DNA from: Hyphomicrobiales bacterium
GTDB taxonomy: Bacteria; Pseudomonadota; Alphaproteobacteria; Rhizobiales; CAYWUX01
Reading direction: 5' to 3'
Assembly: GCA_028279265.1 (NCBI GenBank)
Contig: JANQOC010000717.1
Span: forward strand, 1 to 41,422
Length of the DNA: 41,422 nucleotides
Below, one piece after another: positions 1-41,422 of this stretch. Within the stretch, counting starts at the first letter, position 1. Each line of letters begins with the position of its first letter. The notes beneath the pieces were generated by a model. That model had not been told where the DNA came from and ran no database searches. It saw only the letters and a list, made by a program, of their open reading frames with translations. Made by a program: the position numbers and the translations under genes.

Positions 1-99
1 CGTTGGAACGGCTACGGGCGGCAGCGGTTCTCTTACAAGCAGCATAACATCGCTTGGCAATGATTATTATTTAATAAAAATAACAGACACGCCGAATAA
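1..99. repeat. Terminal direct repeat, copy 1 (exact duplicate of 41324..41422); assembly overlap of a circular or circularly permuted genome
   Basis: Bases 1-99 (cgttggaacggctacggg...cacgccgaataa) recur exactly at 41324-41422. A long ORF reads across the junction in frame. Confidence 0.95.
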
Positions 100-18317: not shown

Positions 18318-19154
18318 ATGTCCAAGAAATTCCAGGTTTACGAAGAATTCGTCAAACCCCAGCGAAAAGTCCATACGGCCTTCATTCATTGTTCGGCTAA
18401 TTCGAACCCCAAATGGGGCGTCGAAGAGTGCTATCACCTTCATGCTGTGACCAATGGCTGGGGCGATATCGGTTATCACGTTTTTGTTGAACGTGATGGA
18501 ACGGGTTATCTCGGGCGCGATTGGGAAAAGGTTCCTTATGCCCAGGCGCCGTTTAACACGGGTTCCATCGCCATTTGCCTGGATGGCGGCCAATATGGAA
18601 AAGATGATTTCACGGATGAACAGATCGCTTTCGTCCAGCGGATCATGCACGATATCGACCGCGCCTATGATGGGAAATTGAAATGGAAGGGCCACCGGGA
18701 AGTCAAGCCAGGCCGGGCCTGTCCGGCCTTCGATTATCACACCAGATTGCATATTTCCAAGACCGGTAATTATCTCGGGGGTGTGGCGACCAAGAAGAAA
18801 CTCAGGGAAGCCGGATCGGAAACCATCAAAGCGGCTGACCGGAACGACGACGTGGCCACGGGCTGCGCGGTGCTGGCGGCGGCCGGCGGCGGTAATGCGG
18901 TGGTCAACGGTCCACCGGAACCCAGTGCCTTGGAAAAAGCCACAAGCCTAGCCGCGGATGCGACCGCCTGGAAGCAAACCATGAACACGGGCGCGGAACT
19001 CTTATCCTGGGCTTCCGTCAACTGGTGGCTGGTTCTGGCGGCTTTTGCAGCCGTATTAATCTACAAGAACCGTAAGCTGATCCGGGCACGGCTCAATGAC
19101 GAAACCAAGATTGGAAGATTGTTTCAATGGGATGGATCGCCTCAATCGGCCTGA
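18318..19154 (+). CDS. N-acetylmuramoyl-L-alanine amidase (T7 lysozyme / PGRP, Amidase_2 type) with a C-terminal transmembrane segment
   Basis: Motifs IHCSANSN, GWGDIGYHVFVERDG, NTGSIAICLDGG and GHREVKPGRACPAFDY. C-terminus: WWLVLAAFAAVLIYKNRKLIRARL. Confidence 0.85.
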   Translation: MSKKFQVYEEFVKPQRKVHTAFIHCSANSNPKWGVEECYHLHAVTNGWGDIGYHVFVERDGTGYLGRDWEKVPYAQAPFNTGSIAICLDGGQYGKDDFTDEQIAFVQRIMHDIDRAYDGKLKWKGHREVKPGRACPAFDYHTRLHISKTGNYLGGVATKKKLREAGSETIKAADRNDDVATGCAVLAAAGGGNAVVNGPPEPSALEKATSLAADATAWKQTMNTGAELLSWASVNWWLVLAAFAAVLIYKNRKLIRARLNDETKIGRLFQWDGSPQSA

Positions 19155-19447
19155 AGGCCTTCGGCGGATCCCTTTGGGGGCTCGTTAGCCGTAATATGAC
19201 CACGGTGCTGATTATTGGGGCCTTGGTCTTAGGAAAATTTTACATCGGGGATAAGGTTCGGGATGAAAATGAGCGCACAAGACTGGAAGTTGAGAATGAA
19301 CATAGCGTTCAGGAAATGGAAGAATATATCAAGTCCATGCGCCGTTCCCGGGAAATTTCTGATCGCATTAGTCGCGATGGGGCTTTTGACCGCTTGCGGC
19401 GCCTTAAGTGCGAAGCCTGTTATCAAGACGAAGGTCATCAAGATTGA
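19127..19447 (+). CDS. i-spanin-like membrane protein
   Basis: N-terminal TM (TTVLIIGALVLGKFYI) followed by a charged helical domain. A lipoprotein ORF begins inside it in the +1 frame. Confidence 0.55.
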   Translation: MGWIASIGLKAFGGSLWGLVSRNMTTVLIIGALVLGKFYIGDKVRDENERTRLEVENEHSVQEMEEYIKSMRRSREISDRISRDGAFDRLRRLKCEACYQDEGHQD

Positions 19448-20339: not shown

Positions 20340-20735
20340 TTAACGTAATCCCATCTGGTATTCCTGGATGATTTCCTTTACTTTCTTATCACCATAGAGG
20401 GCGGCGGACTTCAGGGCACGATTGGCCCGCCTTAACTCTGTTTTTGTTTTTTCGTCTTGCTTTCCATTGATTACAAATTTTATATCGTCGGATATAGCGT
20501 TAGACCCTTCGTGTTCAATAAAAAGCCTGTAACCTTTATTGTCCTCAAAGTTCTGGACAATAATCTTAGAATGTTCCGGATCTCCAAAAATGAAGAATTC
20601 GACCATATTGTCATATCGAAAACCCTCATGTGTTTTCCAGGACATCCCCGCCTTCATTTCATAACCGAGTTTCTCCAGGCCATCACGAAACGTGTTGAAG
20701 GAATGGTTGTGAAACAGGTCAACTTTTTTTGTCAT
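20340..20735 (-). CDS. Hypothetical protein (AT-rich moron)
   Basis: ATG 20735 with SD aagggg (MTKKVDLFHNHSF...). The 5' extension of track ORF 20340..20795 covers the promoter. Visibly AT-richer than its neighbours. Confidence 0.7.
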   Translation of the reverse strand: MTKKVDLFHNHSFNTFRDGLEKLGYEMKAGMSWKTHEGFRYDNMVEFFIFGDPEHSKIIVQNFEDNKGYRLFIEHEGSNAISDDIKFVINGKQDEKTKTELRRANRALKSAALYGDKKVKEIIQEYQMGLR

Positions 20736-20766: not shown

Positions 20767-20795
20767 AATATAGCACATATGAACCATAAGTTCAA
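20767..20795 (-). promoter_or_regulatory. Sigma70-type promoter TTGAAC-N17-TATATT for the moron gene, overlapping the dyad TGAAC-N5-GTTCA
   Basis: The minus strand reads TTGAACttatggttcatatgtgcTATATT. -35 is at 20795..20790 and -10 at 20772..20767. Confidence 0.6.
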
Positions 20796-20800
20796 GAGTA

Positions 20801-20846
20801 AATAAAAGAAATCCCCAGGTCCAGTTCAGCGAAACCTGGGGATTTC
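20801..20846 (-). terminator. Rho-independent terminator after the OMP gene
   Basis: Perfect 13-bp stem gaaatccccaggt/acctggggatttc, followed on the minus strand by TTTTATTT. Confidence 0.85.
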
Positions 20847-20872: not shown

Positions 20873-21445
20873 TTAGAAATTCGCTCCGGCGCGATACATA
20901 AACCGATCCTCACTTGGATCCGCGCCCATTATGGTTTCGTAATCCCAATGCTGCCATTCCGGCCCGTGGAAGATATTCCCGGACTGGAACTTGGCCCCGA
21001 GGCCATAAATCAAAGCATCAATCTCGGGTCCGCCTTTAACGCCTTGGCGGCCAACACCGACAAGACCATGGACGGAAGCTGAATCGCTCAACTGAATCCC
21101 GAAGATCCCAACACCATAGTAATAATCGTCCAGCTCAACCCCAAAGCCTTCTGCGCCGTTGAGGCCGTAGGCAATCCGGCCGCCCAGGATAATGGCACCG
21201 CCGGTTTGGAGCGTACATTCGCCGAAGATTTCGCCGGCCAGGCCGTCGCCGCCCAGATTACCGCCGCCAATATCAACATCGGCATTTGAGCGACCGCCGG
21301 CAGCACCAACGCCACAGCCCTGGAAGACACCCAAGAATTTCGGTGTTTCGTCTGCCTTAACTTCTTTTGGCCCGCCAAGATCGGCAGCCATTACAGTAGA
21401 GGCCGCGAATACCACCGCCCCGAGTACCGTCAATAGTCGTTTCAT
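20873..21445 (-). CDS. Outer-membrane beta-barrel protein (OmpA-like barrel / Omp25 / Ail-Lom type) with a signal peptide
   Basis: MKRLLTVLGAVVFAASTVMA|ADL signal peptide, alternating Gly/aromatic beta-strand pattern, and terminal ...FMYRAGANF, the C-terminal Phe beta-signal. SD aggggac. Confidence 0.8.
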   Translation of the reverse strand: MKRLLTVLGAVVFAASTVMAADLGGPKEVKADETPKFLGVFQGCGVGAAGGRSNADVDIGGGNLGGDGLAGEIFGECTLQTGGAIILGGRIAYGLNGAEGFGVELDDYYYGVGIFGIQLSDSASVHGLVGVGRQGVKGGPEIDALIYGLGAKFQSGNIFHGPEWQHWDYETIMGADPSEDRFMYRAGANF

Positions 21446-21461
21446 GAGTAGTCCCCTAAGT

Positions 21462-21485: not shown

Positions 21486-21550
21486 TACATATCTGATTTG
21501 CTCAGAAAACTTGTGGTTTATACGTCACACGTTAACCTTTTCCCCCGAAA

Positions 21551-22462: not shown

Positions 22463-22632
22463 AACTTTCCCTTTTGCTTATCCTTCAGGGCTCGCCAGAT
22501 CATTCGCGCCTTCGCCGGATCAACTTTTCGCGTAGCTCGGAAGTTGATTGCCAACTGCTTGCGCTGGGCCGCGATTTCCGGGATGGCTTTATATTCCCGG
22601 TACATGGTTTCCGTGGGAATGTGCTTTTTCAT
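22459..22632 (-). CDS. Small basic protein (57 aa), translationally coupled to the recombinase
   Basis: Hand-translated: MKKHIPTETMYREYKAIPEIAAQRKQLAINFRATRKVDPAKARMIWRALKDKQKGKL. Its ATG overlaps the recombinase TGA (ATGA). Confidence 0.55.
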   Translation of the reverse strand: MKKHIPTETMYREYKAIPEIAAQRKQLAINFRATRKVDPAKARMIWRALKDKQKGKL

Positions 22633-23252
22633 GTTTCTAAAACACTTCTTTCAAAACGTTTGTAGGTTTTTCCGTTTCCCACCTCTTCGGATGTTAAACT
22701 ATTCCGTTTCAAAAAGCGCCATAGGGTTGAGCGGGAAACGCCGACTATTTTTGCAATATCGGATAAACCGGTATCTGCTTCCAAAAGCTGGATGACGGCC
22801 CGCTGTTTATCGAGCGTCATGGCCGCCGGCCGGCCGAATTTTGCCCCGCGCTGCCGGGCCGCCGCCAGTCCGGCCTGAATTCGCTCGTTTGTCATTTCGC
22901 GCTCGAACTCGGACAAGATCATCAGAAGGTTAAACATCAACTTGCCGGTCGCCGTCTGAGTGTCGATCTTTTCCTTCAGGCTTTCGAACTCGATACAGTT
23001 CTCCCGAAAGTGGTCGGTCAACTTCAAAAGGTCTCGAAGGGATCGAGCCAATCGGTCCAATTTCCAGACAATGATTTTATCGCCAGGCTTGACCTTCTTC
23101 AGCATCTTGTTTAGCTCTTTGCGGTCTTTCGTATATCGACCGCTGAACTTGTCTGTAAAGATTTCGTCACAGTCGGCAGCCTTCAGGGCGTCAATCTGAA
23201 GATCCAGCCGTTGATCTTCGGTGGATACGCGGGCGTAGCCATATACAGTCAT
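22629..23252 (-). CDS. Small serine recombinase (resolvase/invertase family)
   Basis: YGYARVSTEDQ (catalytic Ser), GDKIIVWKLDRLARS, and the C-terminal HTH DIAKIVGVSRSTLWRFLKR. 207 aa. Confidence 0.9.
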   Translation of the reverse strand: MTVYGYARVSTEDQRLDLQIDALKAADCDEIFTDKFSGRYTKDRKELNKMLKKVKPGDKIIVWKLDRLARSLRDLLKLTDHFRENCIEFESLKEKIDTQTATGKLMFNLLMILSEFEREMTNERIQAGLAAARQRGAKFGRPAAMTLDKQRAVIQLLEADTGLSDIAKIVGVSRSTLWRFLKRNSLTSEEVGNGKTYKRFERSVLET

Positions 23253-25082: not shown

Positions 25083-25193
25083 CTATAAAATCGGTTGTCG
25101 AAGTTCATAGAGCCAAATACCAGCAACAAGAATGGACCATAAGATAAGAATCACAATAACAGAGATCGCGATTCGTGTAAACCACTTGTTCAT
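25083..25193 (-). CDS. Mini membrane peptide (36 aa)
   Basis: Hand-translated: MNKWFTRIAISVIVILILWSILVAGIWLYELRQPIL. Its ATG overlaps the upstream stop (ATGA). Confidence 0.5.
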   Translation of the reverse strand: MNKWFTRIAISVIVILILWSILVAGIWLYELRQPIL

Positions 25194-27530: not shown

Positions 27531-28055
27531 TTACTTGAACCGAATGTTCACTTGTTCGCCGCCATTGTCAAGTCCCGCCCCGGGGATAACTCGACCATTT
27601 TTCTCCGCATCCCGGACATCGAGGTCCAAAGATTTTTTATCAAGCTTTGGATCCTGGGGCTGCCAGTAATTATCGGGGATTAATGTTTCGTCTGAGATAA
27701 CCAGTTTTCGCTTGGTAGCCGAAACCGAAACTGTGGCGAGAGGCCGCTCAATTTTCTTAGTTTCCGCGACCTGGCACGCATTGAGGACCGCCGCAAGTAG
27801 GAGACTATATCGTTTCTCAATACGGCTTTTGCGCTGGGAAGCTTCCCCCAGGATGATTTTAATCCCTTCAATAAGTTGTTTGTCATTGGCCATCTGCCAT
27901 AAAGCTTGATCCACCATCTCAAAAAGATCGGTTTCCCCTTCCAGGGTATCTTGGAGTAAGTCGTGATCATCGGCAAAGATATCCGCCATTTGGGATTTAA
28001 GGATCTCGGCAGCGCCGACGGCTTTGTTCAGCTTTGCTTCTTTGGAATGTGCCAT
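27531..28055 (-). CDS. Siphovirus Gp157-like protein
   Basis: N-terminal coiled coil, then C-terminal ...VSVSATKRKLVISDETLIPDNYWQPQDPKLDKKSLDLDV..GRVIPGAGLDNGGEQVNIRF, matching the Gp157 family pattern. Adjacent to recT. Confidence 0.6.
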   Translation of the reverse strand: MAHSKEAKLNKAVGAAEILKSQMADIFADDHDLLQDTLEGETDLFEMVDQALWQMANDKQLIEGIKIILGEASQRKSRIEKRYSLLLAAVLNACQVAETKKIERPLATVSVSATKRKLVISDETLIPDNYWQPQDPKLDKKSLDLDVRDAEKNGRVIPGAGLDNGGEQVNIRFK

Positions 28056-28116
28056 ATTAGGTTCCCTTCAATTGAAATGAAAAATGCGGCCAGGAGCGGA
28101 TCTGGCCGCATTCGCT

Positions 28117-28203
28117 TTACTGGACGAACTTAATTAACAGGATGAAAAACGCACTGGACGCAACCACAAAAAACGCCTGACCGATCCAGAAATGTTTGGT
28201 CAT
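28117..28203 (-). CDS. Mini membrane peptide (28 aa)
   Basis: Hand-translated: MTKHFWIGQAFFVVASSAFFILLIKFVQ. SD gaggatagg. First ORF after the promoter candidate. Confidence 0.4.
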   Translation of the reverse strand: MTKHFWIGQAFFVVASSAFFILLIKFVQ

Positions 28204-28236
28204 AGTCCTATCCTCTAAGTTTCAGCAACAGGTGAA

Positions 28237-28265
28237 CCATAAGTTTATTCGCGGACTAATGTCAA
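28237..28265 (-). promoter_or_regulatory. Promoter candidate TTGACA-N17/18-TTATGGT for the Gp157/recT operon, overlapping the 13-mer motif
   Basis: The minus strand reads cccTTGACAttagtccgcgaataaacTTATGGTtcacc, directly after terminator 28279..28312. Confidence 0.5.
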
Positions 28266-28278
28266 GGGCTTTTTCCAC

Positions 28279-28312
28279 AAAAAAACGGGGCCGTCTATCC
28301 GCCGACGGCCCC
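28279..28312 (-). terminator. Rho-independent terminator after the Acb2-like gene
   Basis: ggggccgtc/gacggcccc 9-bp stem. The minus strand continues TTTTTTT. Confidence 0.8.
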
Positions 28313-28388
28313 GCCCCAGGTTCCCTGATCCTTTGGTGTCGCCATTGATTAGGCCAAGGCGATGGATCCAGGGATCCCACCCCGCGAC

Positions 28389-28676
28389 TTAGTTCATGGG
28401 AAGAGATTCTTCGTTTGATTTTCTGGCGGTTGGGCTCACTTCTCTAGGATTAAAAACGGACTTGACAAAAAACATTTCCACTTCTTCCAAATGGGTTTTT
28501 GCTAAGGAAGACCAGCGCAACCGCCGTCCATCGGATTGTAATTTTTCAAAATCTTCAATTTGCGCTTTTATTCTAGCGATATCGATTTTAAAATTGTTGA
28601 CTAGGTCCACATGGCCTTGGCTTTGAGGCTTATAGCCTTCCACGGGAAGAGCTGCATGTTCGGTTTCGTCTGTCAT
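28389..28676 (-). CDS. Small helical-hairpin protein, Acb2-like (cyclic-oligonucleotide sponge) candidate
   Basis: ATG 28676: MTDETEHAALPVEGYKPQSQGHVDLVNNFK...LRWSSLAKTHLEEVEMFFVKSVFNP. The G-Y...(15 aa)...K spacing and the W..(A)KT..E....F..(R/K)..F.P tail match my recollection of the Acb2 family. Not verified. Confidence 0.4.
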   Translation of the reverse strand: MTDETEHAALPVEGYKPQSQGHVDLVNNFKIDIARIKAQIEDFEKLQSDGRRLRWSSLAKTHLEEVEMFFVKSVFNPREVSPTARKSNEESLPMN

Positions 28677-29049
28677 TTTGCTTGATAGCCTTTCTGATAA
28701 GTTGTGTTGCCCGCCAGCGCCACCAAGCGGTGCCAACACGTTGACTTCCCAAGTAAGTGGCGCCGGAAACAGTAGACCAATTGATCAAGTGGACGATGTA
28801 GTTTCCATACCTATCGTCGTGGTGGGCGACACCGTAAACATATCGAACACCATCTTCGCGGAACCATTGAATTCTCGGATTAGGTTTGAGAAGGTCGAAT
28901 ATAGCCATAGGTAAATAATTTAAATCTATTTGCATATGTGCCTGACGGGCGATTGATTGATTCGCAACGAAAACTCCACCATCTGCAAAGACAAACATAT
29001 GGTTGAAGAATGCCCGCCAGGTCTTGACGTTGATAAACTGTTCGTTCAT
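28630..29049 (-). CDS. Hypothetical protein divergent from the Cro-like gene (start uncertain)
   Basis: ATG 29049 (MNEQFINVKTW...). Upstream of it the track ORF is antisense to the Cro-like gene and Cys/His/Arg-rich. Alternative starts at 28998 and 28935. Confidence 0.45.
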   Translation of the reverse strand: MNEQFINVKTWRAFFNHMFVFADGGVFVANQSIARQAHMQIDLNYLPMAIFDLLKPNPRIQWFREDGVRYVYGVAHHDDRYGNYIVHLINWSTVSGATYLGSQRVGTAWWRWRATQLIRKAIKQNDRRNRTCSSSRGRL

Positions 29050-29060
29050 AGAATGCAACC

Positions 29061-29306
29061 ATGAAAAAAGAAAATGTGAAAAACGTCCGACAGCTTGTGA
29101 ATTATCTCGGTGGTGATGATGAGTTATCGGACAGATTATCGAATGCCGGCATGCGTATCTCCAAGCAGGGCGTTCGCAAGTGGATATATTTGGGCAACAT
29201 TCCCCTGAAATGGTGGCCCTTCCTTTGTGACTATGGGGATTTTTCAATTGACGAGATGTACCAAATCGTTTTACGCAGCAAGAAAGTGAAGTCTTTAGCT
29301 GCCTAA
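29061..29306 (+). CDS. Cro / YdaS-like HTH regulator
   Basis: ...SDRLSNAGMRISKQGVRKWIYLGNIPLKWWPFLCDYGDFSIDEMY fits the YdaS/Cro-type HTH pattern (vs.qaV.kW...g.iP). It is the first rightward gene. Confidence 0.65.
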   Translation: MKKENVKNVRQLVNYLGGDDELSDRLSNAGMRISKQGVRKWIYLGNIPLKWWPFLCDYGDFSIDEMYQIVLRSKKVKSLAA

Positions 29307-30412: not shown

Positions 30413-31357
30413 ATGCCTAATCGTGCCATCGCCCTTTTGCTTTACCTTGGATCCCTGGGAATGCTGGGCGTTATCCTTCTTATTGAATATGGCTTCGGTC
30501 ATTCACTTGCCGAAGACGCCAAACAAGCCTGGCTGCATATGGGGATCGGGGTTTTCGGGCTCTTATCTATTTGGACATCCGGATCCTTAGTTGCTCATCC
30601 GGGCTGGGGATATAAGGCCGGCGGCGCTTTTGCGGGCATGTTTGCCCTGTTCTTCGCCGCCTTCACCTTCGTTAATATCGCCGGCTATTCCGCGTCTAAG
30701 CCCCTGCAAAGAAACGCGGCGGCTGAAAAGAATGTGGCTATCAAAAAGGAAAGCTTTGACAAACAGGTGGAATTCCGCGCCGGAACAACCCAGTGGATGA
30801 AACAGCAAACCATCCGGGGAAAGAACACCAACCGCGCCGACCGCCGCGCTGCCCTGAAAGCCATTCAGGAAATGGCAACATCTGGTCCCATAGCGGGTTA
30901 CAAGGTCACCGCCGAAGAGGCTATGCCGGACCCCCAAGCGGCCGCTGTGGCCATGATGTTTGGGGTTTCCATTGACTGGGCCAGGATGGGGATCTCGGGC
31001 TATGCGGCGATTGCAGCGATCCTCGCAGAGCTCTTTGGCGGGTTTTTCGCACCAATCCTATGGAGCCTCGACCGGTCTACCGTGAAAAAATCCCTTCGCG
31101 GCCAGGTCGTCGAAATCAAAAAGGCTATCTATACACCCCTACGCCTGGCACCCCCGGAACACCCGGTTAAGAAGTGGGGCAAGAAACTCCCCAAAGAACA
31201 GCACAATCTCACAAAGCTCTTCGATCAATATTCCGAAGAGGCCAAATTGCACAAATGGCCCATACCTCGGAAACCTGATTTCGCTATTCTGATTAAGGGA
31301 TGCGGGTTCATGAAAAACCCAAGGCGGAAGGGCTATTATATGCCGAAACCAACTTGA
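30413..31357 (+). CDS. Polytopic membrane protein with a basic soluble C-terminal region
   Basis: About four N-terminal TM segments (IALLLYLGSLGMLGVILLI, MGIGVFGLLSIW, FAGMFALFFAAFTFVNIAG), a further hydrophobic pair near residue 200, and a Lys/Arg-rich tail. Confidence 0.65.
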   Translation: MPNRAIALLLYLGSLGMLGVILLIEYGFGHSLAEDAKQAWLHMGIGVFGLLSIWTSGSLVAHPGWGYKAGGAFAGMFALFFAAFTFVNIAGYSASKPLQRNAAAEKNVAIKKESFDKQVEFRAGTTQWMKQQTIRGKNTNRADRRAALKAIQEMATSGPIAGYKVTAEEAMPDPQAAAVAMMFGVSIDWARMGISGYAAIAAILAELFGGFFAPILWSLDRSTVKKSLRGQVVEIKKAIYTPLRLAPPEHPVKKWGKKLPKEQHNLTKLFDQYSEEAKLHKWPIPRKPDFAILIKGCGFMKNPRRKGYYMPKPT

Positions 31358-31464
31358 CAAAGGAGAACCGGCGGTTCAGGGTAGAAGCCGCCGGCTGGAA
31401 AGGTATATCATAATGGGGCCAGACCGACGCGCGGATCGTGATACGCAAATCCCCAGCCTGGCTA

Positions 31465-31492
31465 ACGGGCGATGTTCAAACCCGTGTTTTTT
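31465..31492 (+). terminator. Weak terminator candidate
   Basis: acggg-(11 nt)-cccgt followed by gTTTTTT. The stem is only 5 bp. Confidence 0.3.
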
Positions 31493-31640
31493 GATGGCTA
31501 AAGTGATTTGCACATTTGGTCAACAATTTATTTAGGAGAAACTTAGATAGTCAGGAAGACACCGAGAAGCCTTTTAAGTTTGGAGTAGGGCCTGGTTCGA
31601 TGTCTCCCTGTCGATCTTCAATAAAGGAAAGGTTAATATA

Positions 31641-32567
31641 ATGGGAACTCGCCCATATTTCAAATACTATCCTGAAGAATTCGACAGCGCCGTTCGAGCA
31701 TTGGGTCTGAGCTTCGAAATCCGCGGGGCTTACCAGGCTTTCATAAACTGGCAATGGCAGCTTGGTGGACCTGTTCCTTACGACCCCAAAAGATTTTCCT
31801 TTCAGACCGGTGTTCCCACCCGAACCTGCAAGCGGGTTTTGAAGATCCTGTTAGATTTTGGACTGATTCGCTTTGTCACCAATGACCACGTTGAAAATCC
31901 GAAGATGGCGGATATGATCCACAGTTATTTTCAGAAGGCGGAAATTATGAACCGCAACCGCCGAAAAAATAGAAACGTCAAACAAACGGCTGTTAAAGCG
32001 CCCGTTAAACGCGCGTTTAAAAACGATTCAGTTCCGAAAAACCCAATAAAAACAACGGATGAATTTTCAAATCAGGGGGACAAGTTAGAAGTTAGAAGTT
32101 ATAAATATAAAAACTATCTCCCTACTGAGGTAGAGACTCAGAAGGATGAGGGGGATAATTTAGATATTGAAAAATTTGAAGATGTATTCTATCAGGCCAT
32201 CAGTCCTGATCAGCCGATTGATCACAAAAACACCCCCCTAAACGGATCCTTCGAAACTATCGTGCGCTTTCATGAGCGCCATGGAAGCCTGACACCGAAC
32301 AGCGCCATCGCTGCGGTTCAGAAGTTGATGGACGATTATCCTCCCGAGATAATCAAACACGCCCACCGCCTGGCAATGTCGGACAACATCCGGAATAAAT
32401 ATCAATATTTCTCCAAAGTACTGGCCAATGAAACCGCGCCGGCGGATCCCGCCCTAGACAATCGTCCGGACTGGGTGAAGGAAAAAGAAAAACACGACGA
32501 GTTCATGAAAAAGACTTCACTGGGGACGCCCGGGATTTTTGAACAGATTGCTGCCCTAGACGATTGA
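31641..32567 (+). CDS. Replication organiser: DUF1376 (YdaU-like) N-domain plus DnaD-like C-domain
   Basis: N-terminus YFKYYPEEFDSAVRALGLSFEIRGAYQAFINWQWQ (DUF1376 pattern). C-terminus ...PEIIKHAHRLAMSDNIRNKYQYFSKVLANE (DnaD/DnaB_2-like). The two are joined by a basic linker. Confidence 0.65.
   Translation: MGTRPYFKYYPEEFDSAVRALGLSFEIRGAYQAFINWQWQLGGPVPYDPKRFSFQTGVPTRTCKRVLKILLDFGLIRFVTNDHVENPKMADMIHSYFQKAEIMNRNRRKNRNVKQTAVKAPVKRAFKNDSVPKNPIKTTDEFSNQGDKLEVRSYKYKNYLPTEVETQKDEGDNLDIEKFEDVFYQAISPDQPIDHKNTPLNGSFETIVRFHERHGSLTPNSAIAAVQKLMDDYPPEIIKHAHRLAMSDNIRNKYQYFSKVLANETAPADPALDNRPDWVKEKEKHDEFMKKTSLGTPGIFEQIAALDD
31990..32120. other. Candidate replication origin inside the organiser gene linker
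   Basis: GTTAAAGCGC / GTTAAACGCGC direct repeats. 16-bp perfect palindrome TTAAACGCGCGTTTAA (32005..32020). GTTAGAA GTTAGAA GTTA tandem (32084..32101) followed by an AT-rich tract. Confidence 0.4.
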
Positions 32568-32593
32568 CACCCTCAGACCAAATCAGTTAATTC

Positions 32594-32608
32594 AAAACTT
32601 ATGGTTCA
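32594..32608 (+). promoter_or_regulatory. Third copy of the 13-mer AACTTATGGTTCA, 17 nt upstream of ATG 32625
   Basis: Exact match to the reverse complements of 20780..20792 and 28233..28245. It has the same orientation relative to its downstream gene. Confidence 0.6.
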
Positions 32609-40835: not shown

Positions 40836-41422
40836 ATGCTGGTTCAACCAGGAAAATTGATGACGGCAGCGCAGTTGAGCGGGGGGACGCCAGCGGCGTT
40901 CAGTGCCAATTTTAAAACCCTACCCCTGTCAAGCACGGGCTGGTTCCAAGGGCTGGACGGAACTTTTTTCCGCACCTCTCCTGCAAGGCAGTTCAATATT
41001 AATGGGGAGCTGGAGTACGCAGCGCATAATTTTCACACATATACCGAGAATTGGGAAGATGCTGGATGGACGGAAACCAATGGCACGTTGACCGCTGCAC
41101 CTTCTGAAACAGTCCCTGGATACGATGCCTCGGTTTCCTTATTCACAGAAGGGACAGACACGGCAGTCGAGCATTCTATCGGTGTTAGCTCAACATTCGT
41201 TATTCCTACAGATCAATCGGTTACCGCTCAAATCCTTTTGAAAGCAAACGTAAATGATCATGTTCGAATTGCTATTTTTGCGTTCACAAATTATCAGGGA
41301 TATTTCAATATCTCATCCGGTAGCGTTGGAACGGCTACGGGCGGCAGCGGTTCTCTTACAAGCAGCATAACATCGCTTGGCAATGATTATTATTTAATAA
41401 AAATAACAGACACGCCGAATAA
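40836..41422 (+). CDS. N-terminal part of the junction-spanning fibre/adhesin-like gene (continues at base 100)
   Basis: ATG at 40836, 5 nt after the upstream stop. The frame is open to the contig end with no stop (MLVQPGKLMTAAQLSGG...WTETNGTLTAAP...GNDYYLIKITDTPN). It is missing from the ORF track only because it has no stop in the window. Confidence 0.75.
   Translation, partial: MLVQPGKLMTAAQLSGGTPAAFSANFKTLPLSSTGWFQGLDGTFFRTSPARQFNINGELEYAAHNFHTYTENWEDAGWTETNGTLTAAPSETVPGYDASVSLFTEGTDTAVEHSIGVSSTFVIPTDQSVTAQILLKANVNDHVRIAIFAFTNYQGYFNISSGSVGTATGGSGSLTSSITSLGNDYYLIKITDTPN
41324..41422. repeat. Terminal direct repeat, copy 2 (exact duplicate of 1..99)
   Basis: Identical 99-mer at both contig ends. 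Confidence 0.95.

What the first reader, a model, noticed from the sequence alone, without database searches (positions are those of the whole stretch)
20780..20794. Exact 13-mer AACTTATGGTTCA upstream of three unrelated transcription units
TGAACCATAAGTT occurs at 20780..20792 and 28233..28245, and as its reverse complement at 32596..32608. In all three cases it reads AACTTATGGTTCA in the direction of the downstream gene. It lies 45, 30 and 17 nt before the start codons of the AT-rich moron, the Gp157/recT operon and the post-organiser gene. In copy 1 it completes the dyad TGAAC-CATAA-GTTCA and covers the -35 box. In copy 2 it covers the -10 region. Three identical 13-mers, all intergenic and co-oriented in a 41-kb genome, are far beyond chance, so this is probably an operator for a phage regulator.
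Basis: seen in the sequence. Interest (0 to 1): 0.6.

Follow-up and report, generated by a model that had tools for sequence, protein, structure and literature searches.

The report
Repeated operator at phage promoters
Three identical 13-base sequences sit on top of three promoters in a novel circular phage genome and belong to a wider set of 15-base inverted repeats (TGAAC-N5-GTTCA), which most likely serve as binding sites for a phage repressor; this is an ordinary kind of phage control element in a phage with no known relatives.

Summary
AACTTATGGTTCA occurs exactly three times (20780-92 and 28233-45 on the minus strand, 32596-608 on the plus strand). All three copies are non-coding and read in the direction of the downstream gene.

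The bare triple is only marginally unusual, since 4% of shuffles give some triple 13-mer. Its placement is what makes chance untenable:
- all three copies lie in the roughly 4% of the genome that is non-coding;
- each copy overlaps or abuts a sigma70-like promoter with a near-consensus -35 box.

New here: the 13-mer is the best-conserved class of a 15-bp inverted-repeat family, TGAAC-N5-GTTCA.
- There are 3 perfect copies against 0.07 expected, and 8 copies with at most one mismatch against 1.29 expected.
- Three further members (27536, 29034, 31364) also lie 4-15 nt downstream of a TTGACA/TTGACG box, including the promoter of the Cro-like gene.
- Site position relative to the promoter varies (-35, spacer, -10, +1), which fits repression by occlusion rather than activation.

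The motif is not a host regulon and not the host LexA box, which is GAAC-N7-GAAC. It also does not look like an invertase crossover site.

The likeliest binder is the 81-aa Cro/XRE-fold protein, but this is unproven. Verdict: a real, ordinary operator set in a novel phage.

The parts
20780..20794 (-). Copy 1. The 13-mer is at 20780-20792 and forms the perfect 15-bp dyad TGAAC-TTATG-GTTCA. It overlaps the -35 box and spacer of the promoter of the 131-aa moron gene (20340-20735).
20767..20795 (-). Predicted promoter TTGAAC-17-TATATT of the 131-aa moron. It lies directly after a terminator-like hairpin (about 20809-20845) that ends the OMP-like gene.
28233..28247 (-). Copy 2. The 13-mer is at 28233-28245 and the 15-mer reads TAAAC-TTATG-GTTCA. 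It overlaps the -10 box TATGGT of the leftward early promoter.
28236..28265 (-). Predicted promoter TTGACA-18-TATGGT (10 of 12 consensus positions). It lies after the intrinsic terminator 28286-28313 and drives the 28-codon ORF, Gp157/Gam-like, RecT and downstream genes.
32594..32608 (+). Copy 3. The 13-mer is at 32596-32608 and the 15-mer reads AAAAC-TTATG-GTTCA. It lies about -4 to +9 relative to a promoter whose -35 TTGACA (32564-32569) overlaps the stop codon of the DnaD-like gene. The ATG of the 225-aa gene follows 16 nt later.
27536..27550 (-). Site D, the perfect dyad TGAAC-ATTCG-GTTCA (minus-strand reading). It occupies the last codons of Gp157, 15 nt after a TTGACA (27566-27571) and about 105 nt upstream of recT.
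29034..29048 (+). Site F, TAAAC-TGTTC-GTTCA. It lies 4 nt after TTGACG (29024-29029) and abuts TAGAAT (29049-29054), in the promoter of the Cro-like gene whose ATG is at 29061.
28992..29006 (+). A 2-mismatch variant of the 13-mer (CAAAC-ATATG-GTTGA). It lies 42 bp upstream of site F, which is four helical turns, and is a possible auxiliary operator.
31364..31378 (+). Site G, AGAAC-CGGCG-GTTCA. It lies 4 nt after a TTGACA (31354-31359) that overlaps the stop codon of the 314-aa gene, at the head of a 283-nt non-coding stretch.
21506..21520 (+). A 2-mismatch variant (AAAAC-TTGTG-GTTTA on the plus strand). It lies in the terminator-to-promoter gap upstream of the OMP-like moron (about 20873-21446, minus strand) and is inverted relative to that gene.
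19297..19311 (.). Site A, the perfect dyad TGAAC-ATAGC-GTTCA, inside a lysis-region ORF. No promoter box is nearby, so its function is uncertain.
25178..25192 (-). Site C, TGAAC-AAGTG-GTTTA. It overlaps the ATG of a small membrane ORF and a TTTACA-17-TATTGT promoter-like site. The 2-mismatch 13-mer at 25133 lies 45 nt downstream. Its status is uncertain.
29061..29306 (+). The 81-aa Cro-like protein, an all-helical Cro/XRE-type fold. It is the best candidate for the protein that binds the dyads.

Best explanation
The three 13-mers are the most conserved members of a set of 15-bp, partly palindromic operators with consensus (T/A)(G/A)AAC-N5-GTTCA. The two half-site centres are 10 bp apart, which is one helical turn. 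The operators lie on or beside host-sigma70-type promoters of the phage's early, internal and moron transcription units.

A phage-encoded dimeric helix-turn-helix protein most probably binds them and blocks RNA polymerase. The best candidate is the 81-aa Cro/XRE-fold protein at 29061-29306, whose own promoter carries two such sites. Binding would switch these promoters off together and autoregulate the Cro-like gene.

Shown here:
- the sites exist and are over-represented;
- they are specific to the phage;
- they are linked to -35 boxes;
- their placement within the promoter varies.

Inferred, not shown:
- that a protein binds the sites;
- that the effect is repression;
- which protein it is.
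For: Over-representation.
- Three exact copies and 6 hits at <=2 mismatches against 0.81 expected.
- All exact copies lie in the 4.3% of the genome that is non-coding.
- The dyad defined by copy 1, TGAAC-N5-GTTCA, recurs perfectly at 19297 and 27536: 3 copies against 0.07 expected, 0 of 100 shuffles.
- With <=1 mismatch there are 8 copies against 1.29 expected; the largest shuffle value was 5.
- All of them lie in the 19.3-33.7 kb early/moron part of the genome.

Promoter linkage.
- A sense-strand TTGACA/TTGACG box lies 4-24 nt upstream of copy 2, copy 3 and sites D, F and G. Copy 1 overlaps TTGAAC.
- The genome has about 32 such boxes, so the chance per site is about 2.8%.
- Copies 1 and 2 follow terminators and fall in the promoters found by the scan.
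- The sites cover the -35 box, the spacer, the -10 box or +1 at different promoters. This fits occlusion rather than a fixed activator geometry.

Phage specificity.
- Phage density of the perfect dyad is 0.073/kb against 0.003/kb in the host.
- Of 212 host hits with <=1 mismatch, 8.5% lie in non-ORF DNA, against a 9.4% non-ORF background.

Candidate binder.
- The AF2 model of the Cro-like protein has pLDDT 79 and five helices.
- Its best Foldseek matches are Xfaso-1 Cro, C.BclI, lambda cI N-terminal domain and 434 Cro.
- Its few remote homologues weakly match YdaS/P22_Cro.
Against:
- No related phage was found, so there is no phylogenetic footprint.
- In an unbiased scan of all 5-N(0-12)-5 dyads, TGAAC-N5 is not exceptional. 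Some dyad reaches 3 perfect copies in about 47% of shuffles. The dyad enrichment therefore counts only as a test of a hypothesis taken from copy 1.
- A dimer reading only the arms does not explain why the asymmetric spacer TTATG is identical in all three copies, or why they are co-oriented.
- The left arm of copy 3 (AAAAC) has two mismatches to the dyad.
- Sites A, C and H are intragenic and may be chance.
- The sigma70 scan as a whole is not above shuffles: 26 hits against 20.5 +/- 5.6.
- The Foldseek E-values for the Cro-like model are weak (0.6).
- No CI-like maintenance repressor or integrase was found, so the circuit is incomplete.
Confidence: 0.55

Rival explanations
1. The exact 13-mer is an asymmetric, orientation-dependent site for a monomeric or two-domain regulator, like the stoperators and operators of mycobacteriophage L5. 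Alternatively it is a second class of site read by a different protein from the one that reads the variable-spacer dyads.
For: - The non-palindromic spacer TTATG is identical in all three copies and all three are co-oriented with transcription.
- The near-copies keep T(A/G)TGGT.
- L5-type sites are 13-mers, asymmetric, dispersed in promoters and short intergenic gaps, and orientation-dependent (PMC9283540).
Against: - There are only three copies, against more than twenty in L5.
- All three lie on core promoters, not downstream of them.
- The variant at 21508 is inverted relative to its gene.
- Co-orientation of three sites is only p=0.25.
- The arms form a clear dyad that recurs with other spacers.
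- No two-domain repressor was recognised among the ORFs.
Confidence: 0.12
2. The 13-mer is itself part of the promoter: a -10-like TATGGT with flanks, or a box for a phage sigma-like or appropriator factor such as the 66-aa HTH (sigma region 4-like) or the GcrA-like protein. On this reading it activates transcription rather than repressing it.
For: - TATGGT serves as the predicted -10 box in copy 2.
- The phage encodes a GcrA-like protein (Pfam E=4e-5) and a small HTH protein with weak sigma70 region 4 hits.
Against: - The distance from the motif to the nearest -35 box (0, 12 or 24 nt) and to the start codon (44, 29 or 16 nt) is not fixed.
- Copies 1 and 3 lack a -35 box at 16-18 nt from TATGGT.
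- In copy 3 a -35-like role would put the transcription start inside the gene.
- The motif contains no GANTC.
Confidence: 0.08
3. The site is bound by a host transcription factor, such as LexA or an Rrf2/RirA-type TGA-N9-TCA binder, so the phage promoters answer to a host signal.
For: - GAAC/GTTC arms resemble LexA boxes, and the motif fits TGA-N9-TCA (from my own knowledge).
- One exact 13-mer lies in a host contig, just after a stop codon (C300:7762-7774).
Against: - The host lexA upstream region carries the alphaproteobacterial direct repeat GAAC-N7-GAAC, not an inverted N5 dyad.
- Host dyad hits show no intergenic enrichment.
- Host exact and 1-mismatch 13-mers (1+3) match the chance expectation of about 4.7.
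- Two other genomes of the family hold none.
Confidence: 0.07
4. The copies are crossover or accessory sites for the phage's small serine recombinase (DNA-invertase type, 22629-23252), allowing inversion or deletion between them.
For: - A Hin/Gin-like invertase is encoded (Pfam Resolvase 9e-45; phrog_125 2e-68).
- No classical invertible tail-fibre segment is evident.
- Copies occur in both orientations.
Against: - Conservation ends at 13-15 bp, whereas hix/gix-type sites are 26 bp with conserved outer half-site parts.
- The arms are 10 bp apart, centre to centre, with an odd 5-bp spacer, which does not suit a 2-bp central stagger.
- There are no hix-like AAACC-NN-GGTTT sites above chance.
- Recombination between copies 1 and 2 would delete 7.4 kb of early genes.
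- Read evidence could not be obtained.
Confidence: 0.03
5. The element acts at the RNA or translation level. The 13-mer contains ATG-GTT-CA(Y), which opens mini-ORFs starting MVH of 22, 10 and 3 codons, in the manner of a start-associated sequence or uORF.
For: - An ATG sits at the same place in each copy, in the sense orientation.
- Cluster K SAS are 13-bp asymmetric repeats tied to translation starts (PMC3203893).
Against: - No Shine-Dalgarno sequence lies upstream of the internal ATG.
- With the predicted promoters, copies 1 and 2 lie upstream of or across the transcription start, so they would not be in the mRNA.
- The distance to the real start codons varies from 16 to 44 nt, unlike SAS.
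Confidence: 0.04
6. There is no function: the three copies are a chance coincidence in AT-rich promoter-like DNA.
For: 4% of shuffles give some triple 13-mer. The unbiased dyad scans are unremarkable.
Against: All three copies lie in the 4.3% non-coding DNA, are co-oriented and sit on promoters. The dyad members D, F and G are independently linked to TTGACR boxes.
Confidence: 0.06

Closest known systems
Lambdoid CI/Cro operators (OL/OR of lambda, 434, P22)
   Same: - They are partly palindromic 14-18 bp sites with half-sites one helical turn apart.
- They overlap sigma70 promoters of divergent early operons.
- They are bound by Cro/XRE-fold HTH dimers, and the cro promoter itself carries sites.
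- A leftward recombination operon (Gam-like, RecT) lies under such a promoter.
   Different: - The sites here are single (at most paired 42 bp apart), not tandem triplets.
- They are spread over six or more promoters, including two morons and internal promoters.
- Three of them share an identical asymmetric spacer.
- No CI-like repressor or integrase was found.
- The Cro-like protein has no sequence homologue among known phages.
Mycobacteriophage L5 / Cluster A repressor sites (operators and stoperators)
   Same: They are 13-bp sites, highly conserved and dispersed in promoters and short intergenic gaps. Their orientation is correlated with the direction of transcription, and one repressor silences many units (PMC9283540).
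   Different: - L5 has more than 20 fully asymmetric sites bound by a monomer, many of them acting on elongation.
- Here there are only 3 exact copies, with clear dyad arms, all on core promoters.
- The host is a different phylum, and no gp71-like protein was recognised.
Cluster K mycobacteriophage Start Associated Sequences
   Same: They are 13-bp asymmetric repeats, co-oriented with genes, just upstream of start codons of unrelated genes, and essentially absent from the host genome (PMC3203893).
   Different: SAS include a ribosome-binding-like core at a fixed short distance from the start codon and number 11-19 copies. Here there is no SD-like core, the distance varies from 16 to 44 nt, and the sites coincide with promoter boxes.
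LexA boxes (Gram-positive GAAC-N4-GTTC; alphaproteobacterial GAAC-N7-GAAC)
   Same: They share the GAAC/GTTC arms. Some phages place host LexA boxes on their promoters (from my own knowledge).
   Different: The spacing and symmetry differ: this motif is an inverted repeat with N5. The host's own lexA promoter carries the direct repeat GAAC-N7-GAAC, and the host shows no regulon for this motif.

Membership tests
Operator set of a phage Cro/CI-type HTH dimer | Partly palindromic site with half-sites about one helical turn apart | tested here: met
   TGAAC-N5-GTTCA has arm centres 10 bp apart. It is perfect in copy 1, site A and site D, and has one mismatch in copy 2 and sites F, G and C.
Operator set of a phage Cro/CI-type HTH dimer | Sites overlap core promoter elements of early operons, including the regulator's own promoter | tested here: met
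   Predicted promoters only. Copy 1 lies on the -35 box and spacer, copy 2 and site D on the -10 box, sites F and G in the spacer, and copy 3 at +1. Site F and the variant at 28992 lie at the Cro-like promoter. Transcription starts were not mapped.
Operator set of a phage Cro/CI-type HTH dimer | A cognate Cro/XRE-fold DNA-binding protein is encoded next to the sites | tested here: inconclusive
   The AF2 model of the 81-aa protein (pLDDT 79) best matches Cro, C-protein and cI N-terminal-domain folds, but only at E=0.6. Pfam gives no hit, and the remote homologues only weakly match YdaS/P22_Cro.
Operator set of a phage Cro/CI-type HTH dimer | Specific binding of the protein to the sites, with repression | not testable with these tools
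   This needs EMSA or footprinting and reporter assays.
L5-type stoperators | Fully asymmetric site bound by a monomer; many (>20) copies; orientation strictly follows transcription | tested here: not met
   There are 3 exact copies with dyad arms. Of the three 2-mismatch variants, the one at 21508 is inverted relative to its gene.
Cluster K Start Associated Sequences | Fixed, very short distance to the start codon, with an SD-like core | tested here: not met
   The gaps are 44, 29 and 16 nt, and the 13-mer has no GGAG-like core.
Host LexA (SOS) box | Same motif upstream of the host lexA and recA genes | tested here: not met
   The region upstream of lexA has GAAC-N7-GAAC. No TGAAC-N5-GTTCA lies at lexA or recA.
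Hin/Gin-type invertase crossover sites | 26-bp sites with conserved 12-bp half-sites around a 2-bp core, occurring as an inverted pair near the invertase gene | tested here: not met
   Conservation stops at 13-15 bp. The spacer is an odd 5 bp. There are no hix-like sites above chance and no convincing inverted pair near 22629-23252.

The most novel reading that the evidence does not exclude
The three identical, co-oriented 13-mers are a separate class of asymmetric, orientation-dependent sites. They may be read by a monomeric or two-domain regulator, or by a second protein that shares half-sites with the dyad binder. That would give this alphaproteobacterial phage a two-tier operator code comparable to the stoperator system, which is so far known only from actinobacteriophages.
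Probability: 0.1. Interest if true: 0.55.

Novelty: new member of a known kind. Interest (0 to 1): 0.3.

Why it matters
The sites give a first regulatory map for a phage with no cultured or metagenomic relatives. They point to six or more promoters sharing one operator, including the promoters of two morons (a 131-aa gene and an OMP-like gene), the recombination operon, the Cro-like gene and the post-replication genes. This makes the circuit directly testable with one protein and a few oligonucleotides. It also offers a compact repressor-operator pair from an alphaproteobacterial phage, which could be useful as a genetic part. It does not challenge current ideas of phage regulation.

Tried and rejected
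Comparative footprinting found no usable relatives:
- megablast of the early region against phages;
- protein-seeded scans of viral contigs with the 225-aa, Gp157 and DnaD-like proteins;
- a scan of metagenome contigs;
- a search of 400 genomes of the host class;
- homologue searches, in which Gp157's best hit was 41% identical, the Cro-like protein matched nothing but itself, and the 139-aa ORF matched nothing;
- tblastn against cultured phages, with no hit for the Cro-like protein and 45% as the best identity for TerL.

Two distant Gp157-bearing contigs (L006, L007) carry neither the motif nor a repeated k-mer of their own. The one 1-mismatch hit in L006 lies inside a coding sequence. A pattern scan of viral contigs for TTGACA-N9-18-13mer gave 4 hits in unrelated AT-rich contigs, which is the chance level.

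Ideas rejected:
- Host LexA box.
- Host regulon.
- The fourth exact copy on host contig C300 as an attB-like site. It lies after the stop codon of a membrane-protein gene, about 0.12 copies are expected by chance, and the phage has no integrase.
- Invertible tail-fibre segment. The minus-strand genes next to the tail and lysis genes are an OMP-like moron with a signal peptide and C-terminal Phe, and an unknown 131-aa gene, not fibre variants.
- hix-like sites.
- Known RNA families and tRNAs.
- Structured RNA in 31375-31640, which folds with z = -0.65.

Other results that led nowhere:
- The unbiased dyad scans did not single out TGAAC-N5.
- The AF2 model of the 139-aa ORF was unusable, with pLDDT 48.

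Full report
**Context.** The window is a whole contig (C617) of a 765-contig MAG. Its first and last 99 bases are identical, so it is a circular phage genome of about 41,323 bp.

The late genes lie on the plus strand: small and large terminase at 36.5-38.5 kb, portal, capsid, tail, and an amidase endolysin at 18318-19154.

A minus-strand block runs from 20.3 to 29.05 kb and holds:
- a 131-aa unknown gene;
- an OMP-like gene with a signal peptide and C-terminal Phe;
- a Hin/Gin-type serine recombinase;
- DUF968, RecT and Gp157/Gam-like genes;
- an Acb2/Tad1-like gene.

A rightward early block starts at 29061 and holds a Cro-like gene, a GcrA-like gene, a 314-aa membrane protein, a DnaD-like organiser, a 225-aa unknown gene and a small HTH protein.

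The host looks alphaproteobacterial, because its lexA promoter carries GAAC-N7-GAAC. No integrase or CI-like repressor was recognised.

**Check of the observation.** AACTTATGGTTCA is present exactly at 20780-92 (-), 28233-45 (-) and 32596-608 (+). Each copy reads in the direction of the gene downstream. It is the only 13-mer with three or more copies.

The triple alone is not far beyond chance, because 13 of 300 dinucleotide shuffles contain some triple 13-mer. Several other results make chance untenable:
- For this particular word, hits at <=2 mismatches are 6 against 0.81 expected.
- With a hand-curated gene map, non-coding DNA is 4.3% of the genome, and all three copies fall in it.
- The other 3.93 Mb of the MAG holds one exact and three 1-mismatch copies, which is the chance level.
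- Two other genomes of the family hold none.

Copy 2 is followed first by a 28-codon hydrophobic ORF and a hairpin, and only then by Gp157.

**What the sites are.** Copy 1 is a perfect inverted repeat, TGAAC-TTATG-GTTCA. I took that dyad as a hypothesis and searched the genome for it.
- TGAAC-N5-GTTCA occurs perfectly three times (19297, 20780, 27536) against 0.07 expected.
- With at most one mismatch it occurs eight times against 1.29 expected, and the largest of 100 shuffles gave 5.
- All eight lie between 19.3 and 33.7 kb.
- The density of perfect dyads is 0.073/kb in the phage and 0.003/kb in the host.

Read in the direction of transcription, the aligned members are:

| Site | Sequence |
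|---|---|
| copy 1 | TGAAC TTATG GTTCA |
| copy 2 | TAAAC TTATG GTTCA |
| copy 3 | AAAAC TTATG GTTCA |
| D | TGAAC ATTCG GTTCA |
| F | TAAAC TGTTC GTTCA |
| G | AGAAC CGGCG GTTCA |
| A | TGAAC ATAGC GTTCA |
| C | TGAAC AAGTG GTTTA |

There are also two 2-mismatch variants of the 13-mer, at 21506 and 28992.

One caveat applies. An unbiased scan of all 5-N(0-12)-5 dyads does not single this one out; some dyad reaches three perfect copies in about half of the shuffles, and GC-rich dyads have more near-copies. The enrichment is therefore valid only as a one-hypothesis test, with two extra perfect copies against 0.07 expected (p about 0.002).

**Link to promoters.** This evidence is independent of how the sites were found. 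On the sense strand, a TTGACA or TTGACG hexamer ends at the following distance upstream of each site:

| Site | Distance from -35 box |
|---|---|
| copy 2 | 12 nt |
| copy 3 | 24 nt |
| D | 15 nt |
| F | 4 nt |
| G | 4 nt |
| copy 1 | overlaps TTGAAC |

The genome has about 32 such sense-strand boxes, so a random site has one within 36 nt about 2.8% of the time. For the three sites that were not part of the original finding (D, F and G, out of six), the probability is about 4e-4.

Copies 1 and 2 each follow a terminator hairpin and fall within the two promoters that the consensus scan also reports: TTGAAC-17-TATATT and TTGACA-18-TATGGT. Site F fills the spacer of the Cro-like gene's promoter (TTGACG-4-site-TAGAAT, then ATG 6 nt later, suggesting a leaderless mRNA). 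The variant at 28992 lies four helical turns upstream of site F.

Across promoters the site covers the -35 box, the spacer, the -10 box or +1. A repressor that occludes RNA polymerase tolerates such variation. An activator or a promoter element would need fixed geometry.

**Who binds.** The recognisable DNA-binding proteins are:
- the 81-aa Cro-like protein;
- the GcrA-like protein;
- a 66-aa HTH_23 / sigma region 4-like protein;
- the HTH of the invertase;
- the small terminase.

The Cro-like protein folds with pLDDT 79 into five helices. Its best structural matches are Xfaso-1 Cro, C.BclI, lambda cI N-terminal domain, DdrO and 434 Cro, with probability about 0.9 but E = 0.6. Its only remote homologues weakly match YdaS/P22_Cro. 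Proteins of this fold bind as dimers to 14-18 bp pseudo-palindromes with half-sites one turn apart, which is the geometry seen here (established knowledge). I therefore name it as the likeliest binder, at about 30% for the identity. The operator-for-a-phage-regulator reading as a whole stands at about 55%.

The 139-aa ORF divergent from the Cro-like gene (28630-29049) is doubtful as a gene. It has no homologues, it was not even called in the source annotation, and its model has pLDDT 48.

**Rivals.**
- The identical asymmetric spacer and the co-orientation of the three 13-mers are not explained by an arm-reading dimer. They may mark a high-affinity class, or a second asymmetric reader as in L5 stoperators (PMC9283540). 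Three copies, clear dyad arms and one inverted variant argue against a true stoperator system.
- A promoter-element or activator role fails on the variable geometry.
- A host factor is unlikely. The host LexA box is different, and host copies show no intergenic enrichment.
- Invertase crossover sites are unlikely. Conservation stops at 15 bp, the spacer is odd, and no hix-like sites are present.
- An RNA or uORF role (ATG-GTT-CAY inside the motif) lacks an SD sequence and conflicts with the predicted transcription starts.

**Limits.** There are no relatives of this phage in any collection searched. Conservation, transcription starts and rearrangements could therefore not be tested.

**Verdict.** This is a real, non-random regulatory repeat and most probably a repressor operator family. 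That is an ordinary kind of element, here in a phage without known relatives.

Noticed in passing
window 22629-23252 (-): A Hin/Gin-type small serine recombinase (Pfam Resolvase 9e-45, HTH_7; phrog_125 DNA invertase 2e-68). No recognisable invertible segment, hix-like sites or tail-fibre variants lie nearby, and the phage has no integrase. Its substrate is unknown.
   Followed up: partly
window 28389-28676 (-): The first leftward gene after the divergent region matches the Acb2/Tad1 hairpin domain (Pfam PF24729, 1e-10), which suggests an anti-CBASS/Thoeris nucleotide-sponge-like protein. It ends at a strong terminator just upstream of copy 2.
   Followed up: partly
window 28082-28203 (-): The copy 2 promoter is followed by a 28-codon hydrophobic ORF (MTKHFWIGQAFFVVASSAFFILLIKFVQ). 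A 12-bp-stem terminator-like hairpin (28082-28113) comes next, before Gp157. This could be a small membrane peptide or a leader/attenuator arrangement.
   Followed up: no
window 31354-31640 (+): A 283-nt non-coding stretch opens with TTGACA plus site G. It contains a terminator-like hairpin with a T-run at about 31466-31496, so it could encode a ~120-nt small RNA or hold the replication origin. Its fold is no better than shuffles (z = -0.65) and it has no Rfam hit.
   Followed up: partly
window 20873-21446 (-): A moron encoding a small secreted beta-barrel-like protein, with a signal peptide MKRLLTVLGAVVFAASTVMA and a C-terminal ...YRAGANF. It has its own promoter region and terminator. The promoter region carries a 2-mismatch variant of the motif and the GANTC cluster noted by another reader.
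   Followed up: partly
window 28630-29049 (-): A 139-codon ORF starts 11 nt from the Cro-like ATG on the other strand. It has no homologues among 5.8 billion proteins and was not called in the source annotation, and its C-terminal third looks out of frame. It may be non-coding regulatory DNA (about 380 bp) rather than a gene.
   Followed up: partly
window 1-99 and 41324-41422: An identical 99-bp terminal overlap shows that the contig is a closed circle of about 41,323 bp. The 980-aa ORF at 40836 continues across the junction.
   Followed up: yes
G000:C300:7762-7774 (L005): A fourth exact copy of the 13-mer lies in a host contig, 5 nt after the stop codon of a 455-aa membrane-protein gene. About 0.12 copies are expected by chance in the host, so it is probably a coincidence.
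   Followed up: partly
window 29049-29063: The Cro-like gene has no Shine-Dalgarno sequence, and its ATG lies 6 nt after a TAGAAT box. It is probably a leaderless mRNA.
   Followed up: no
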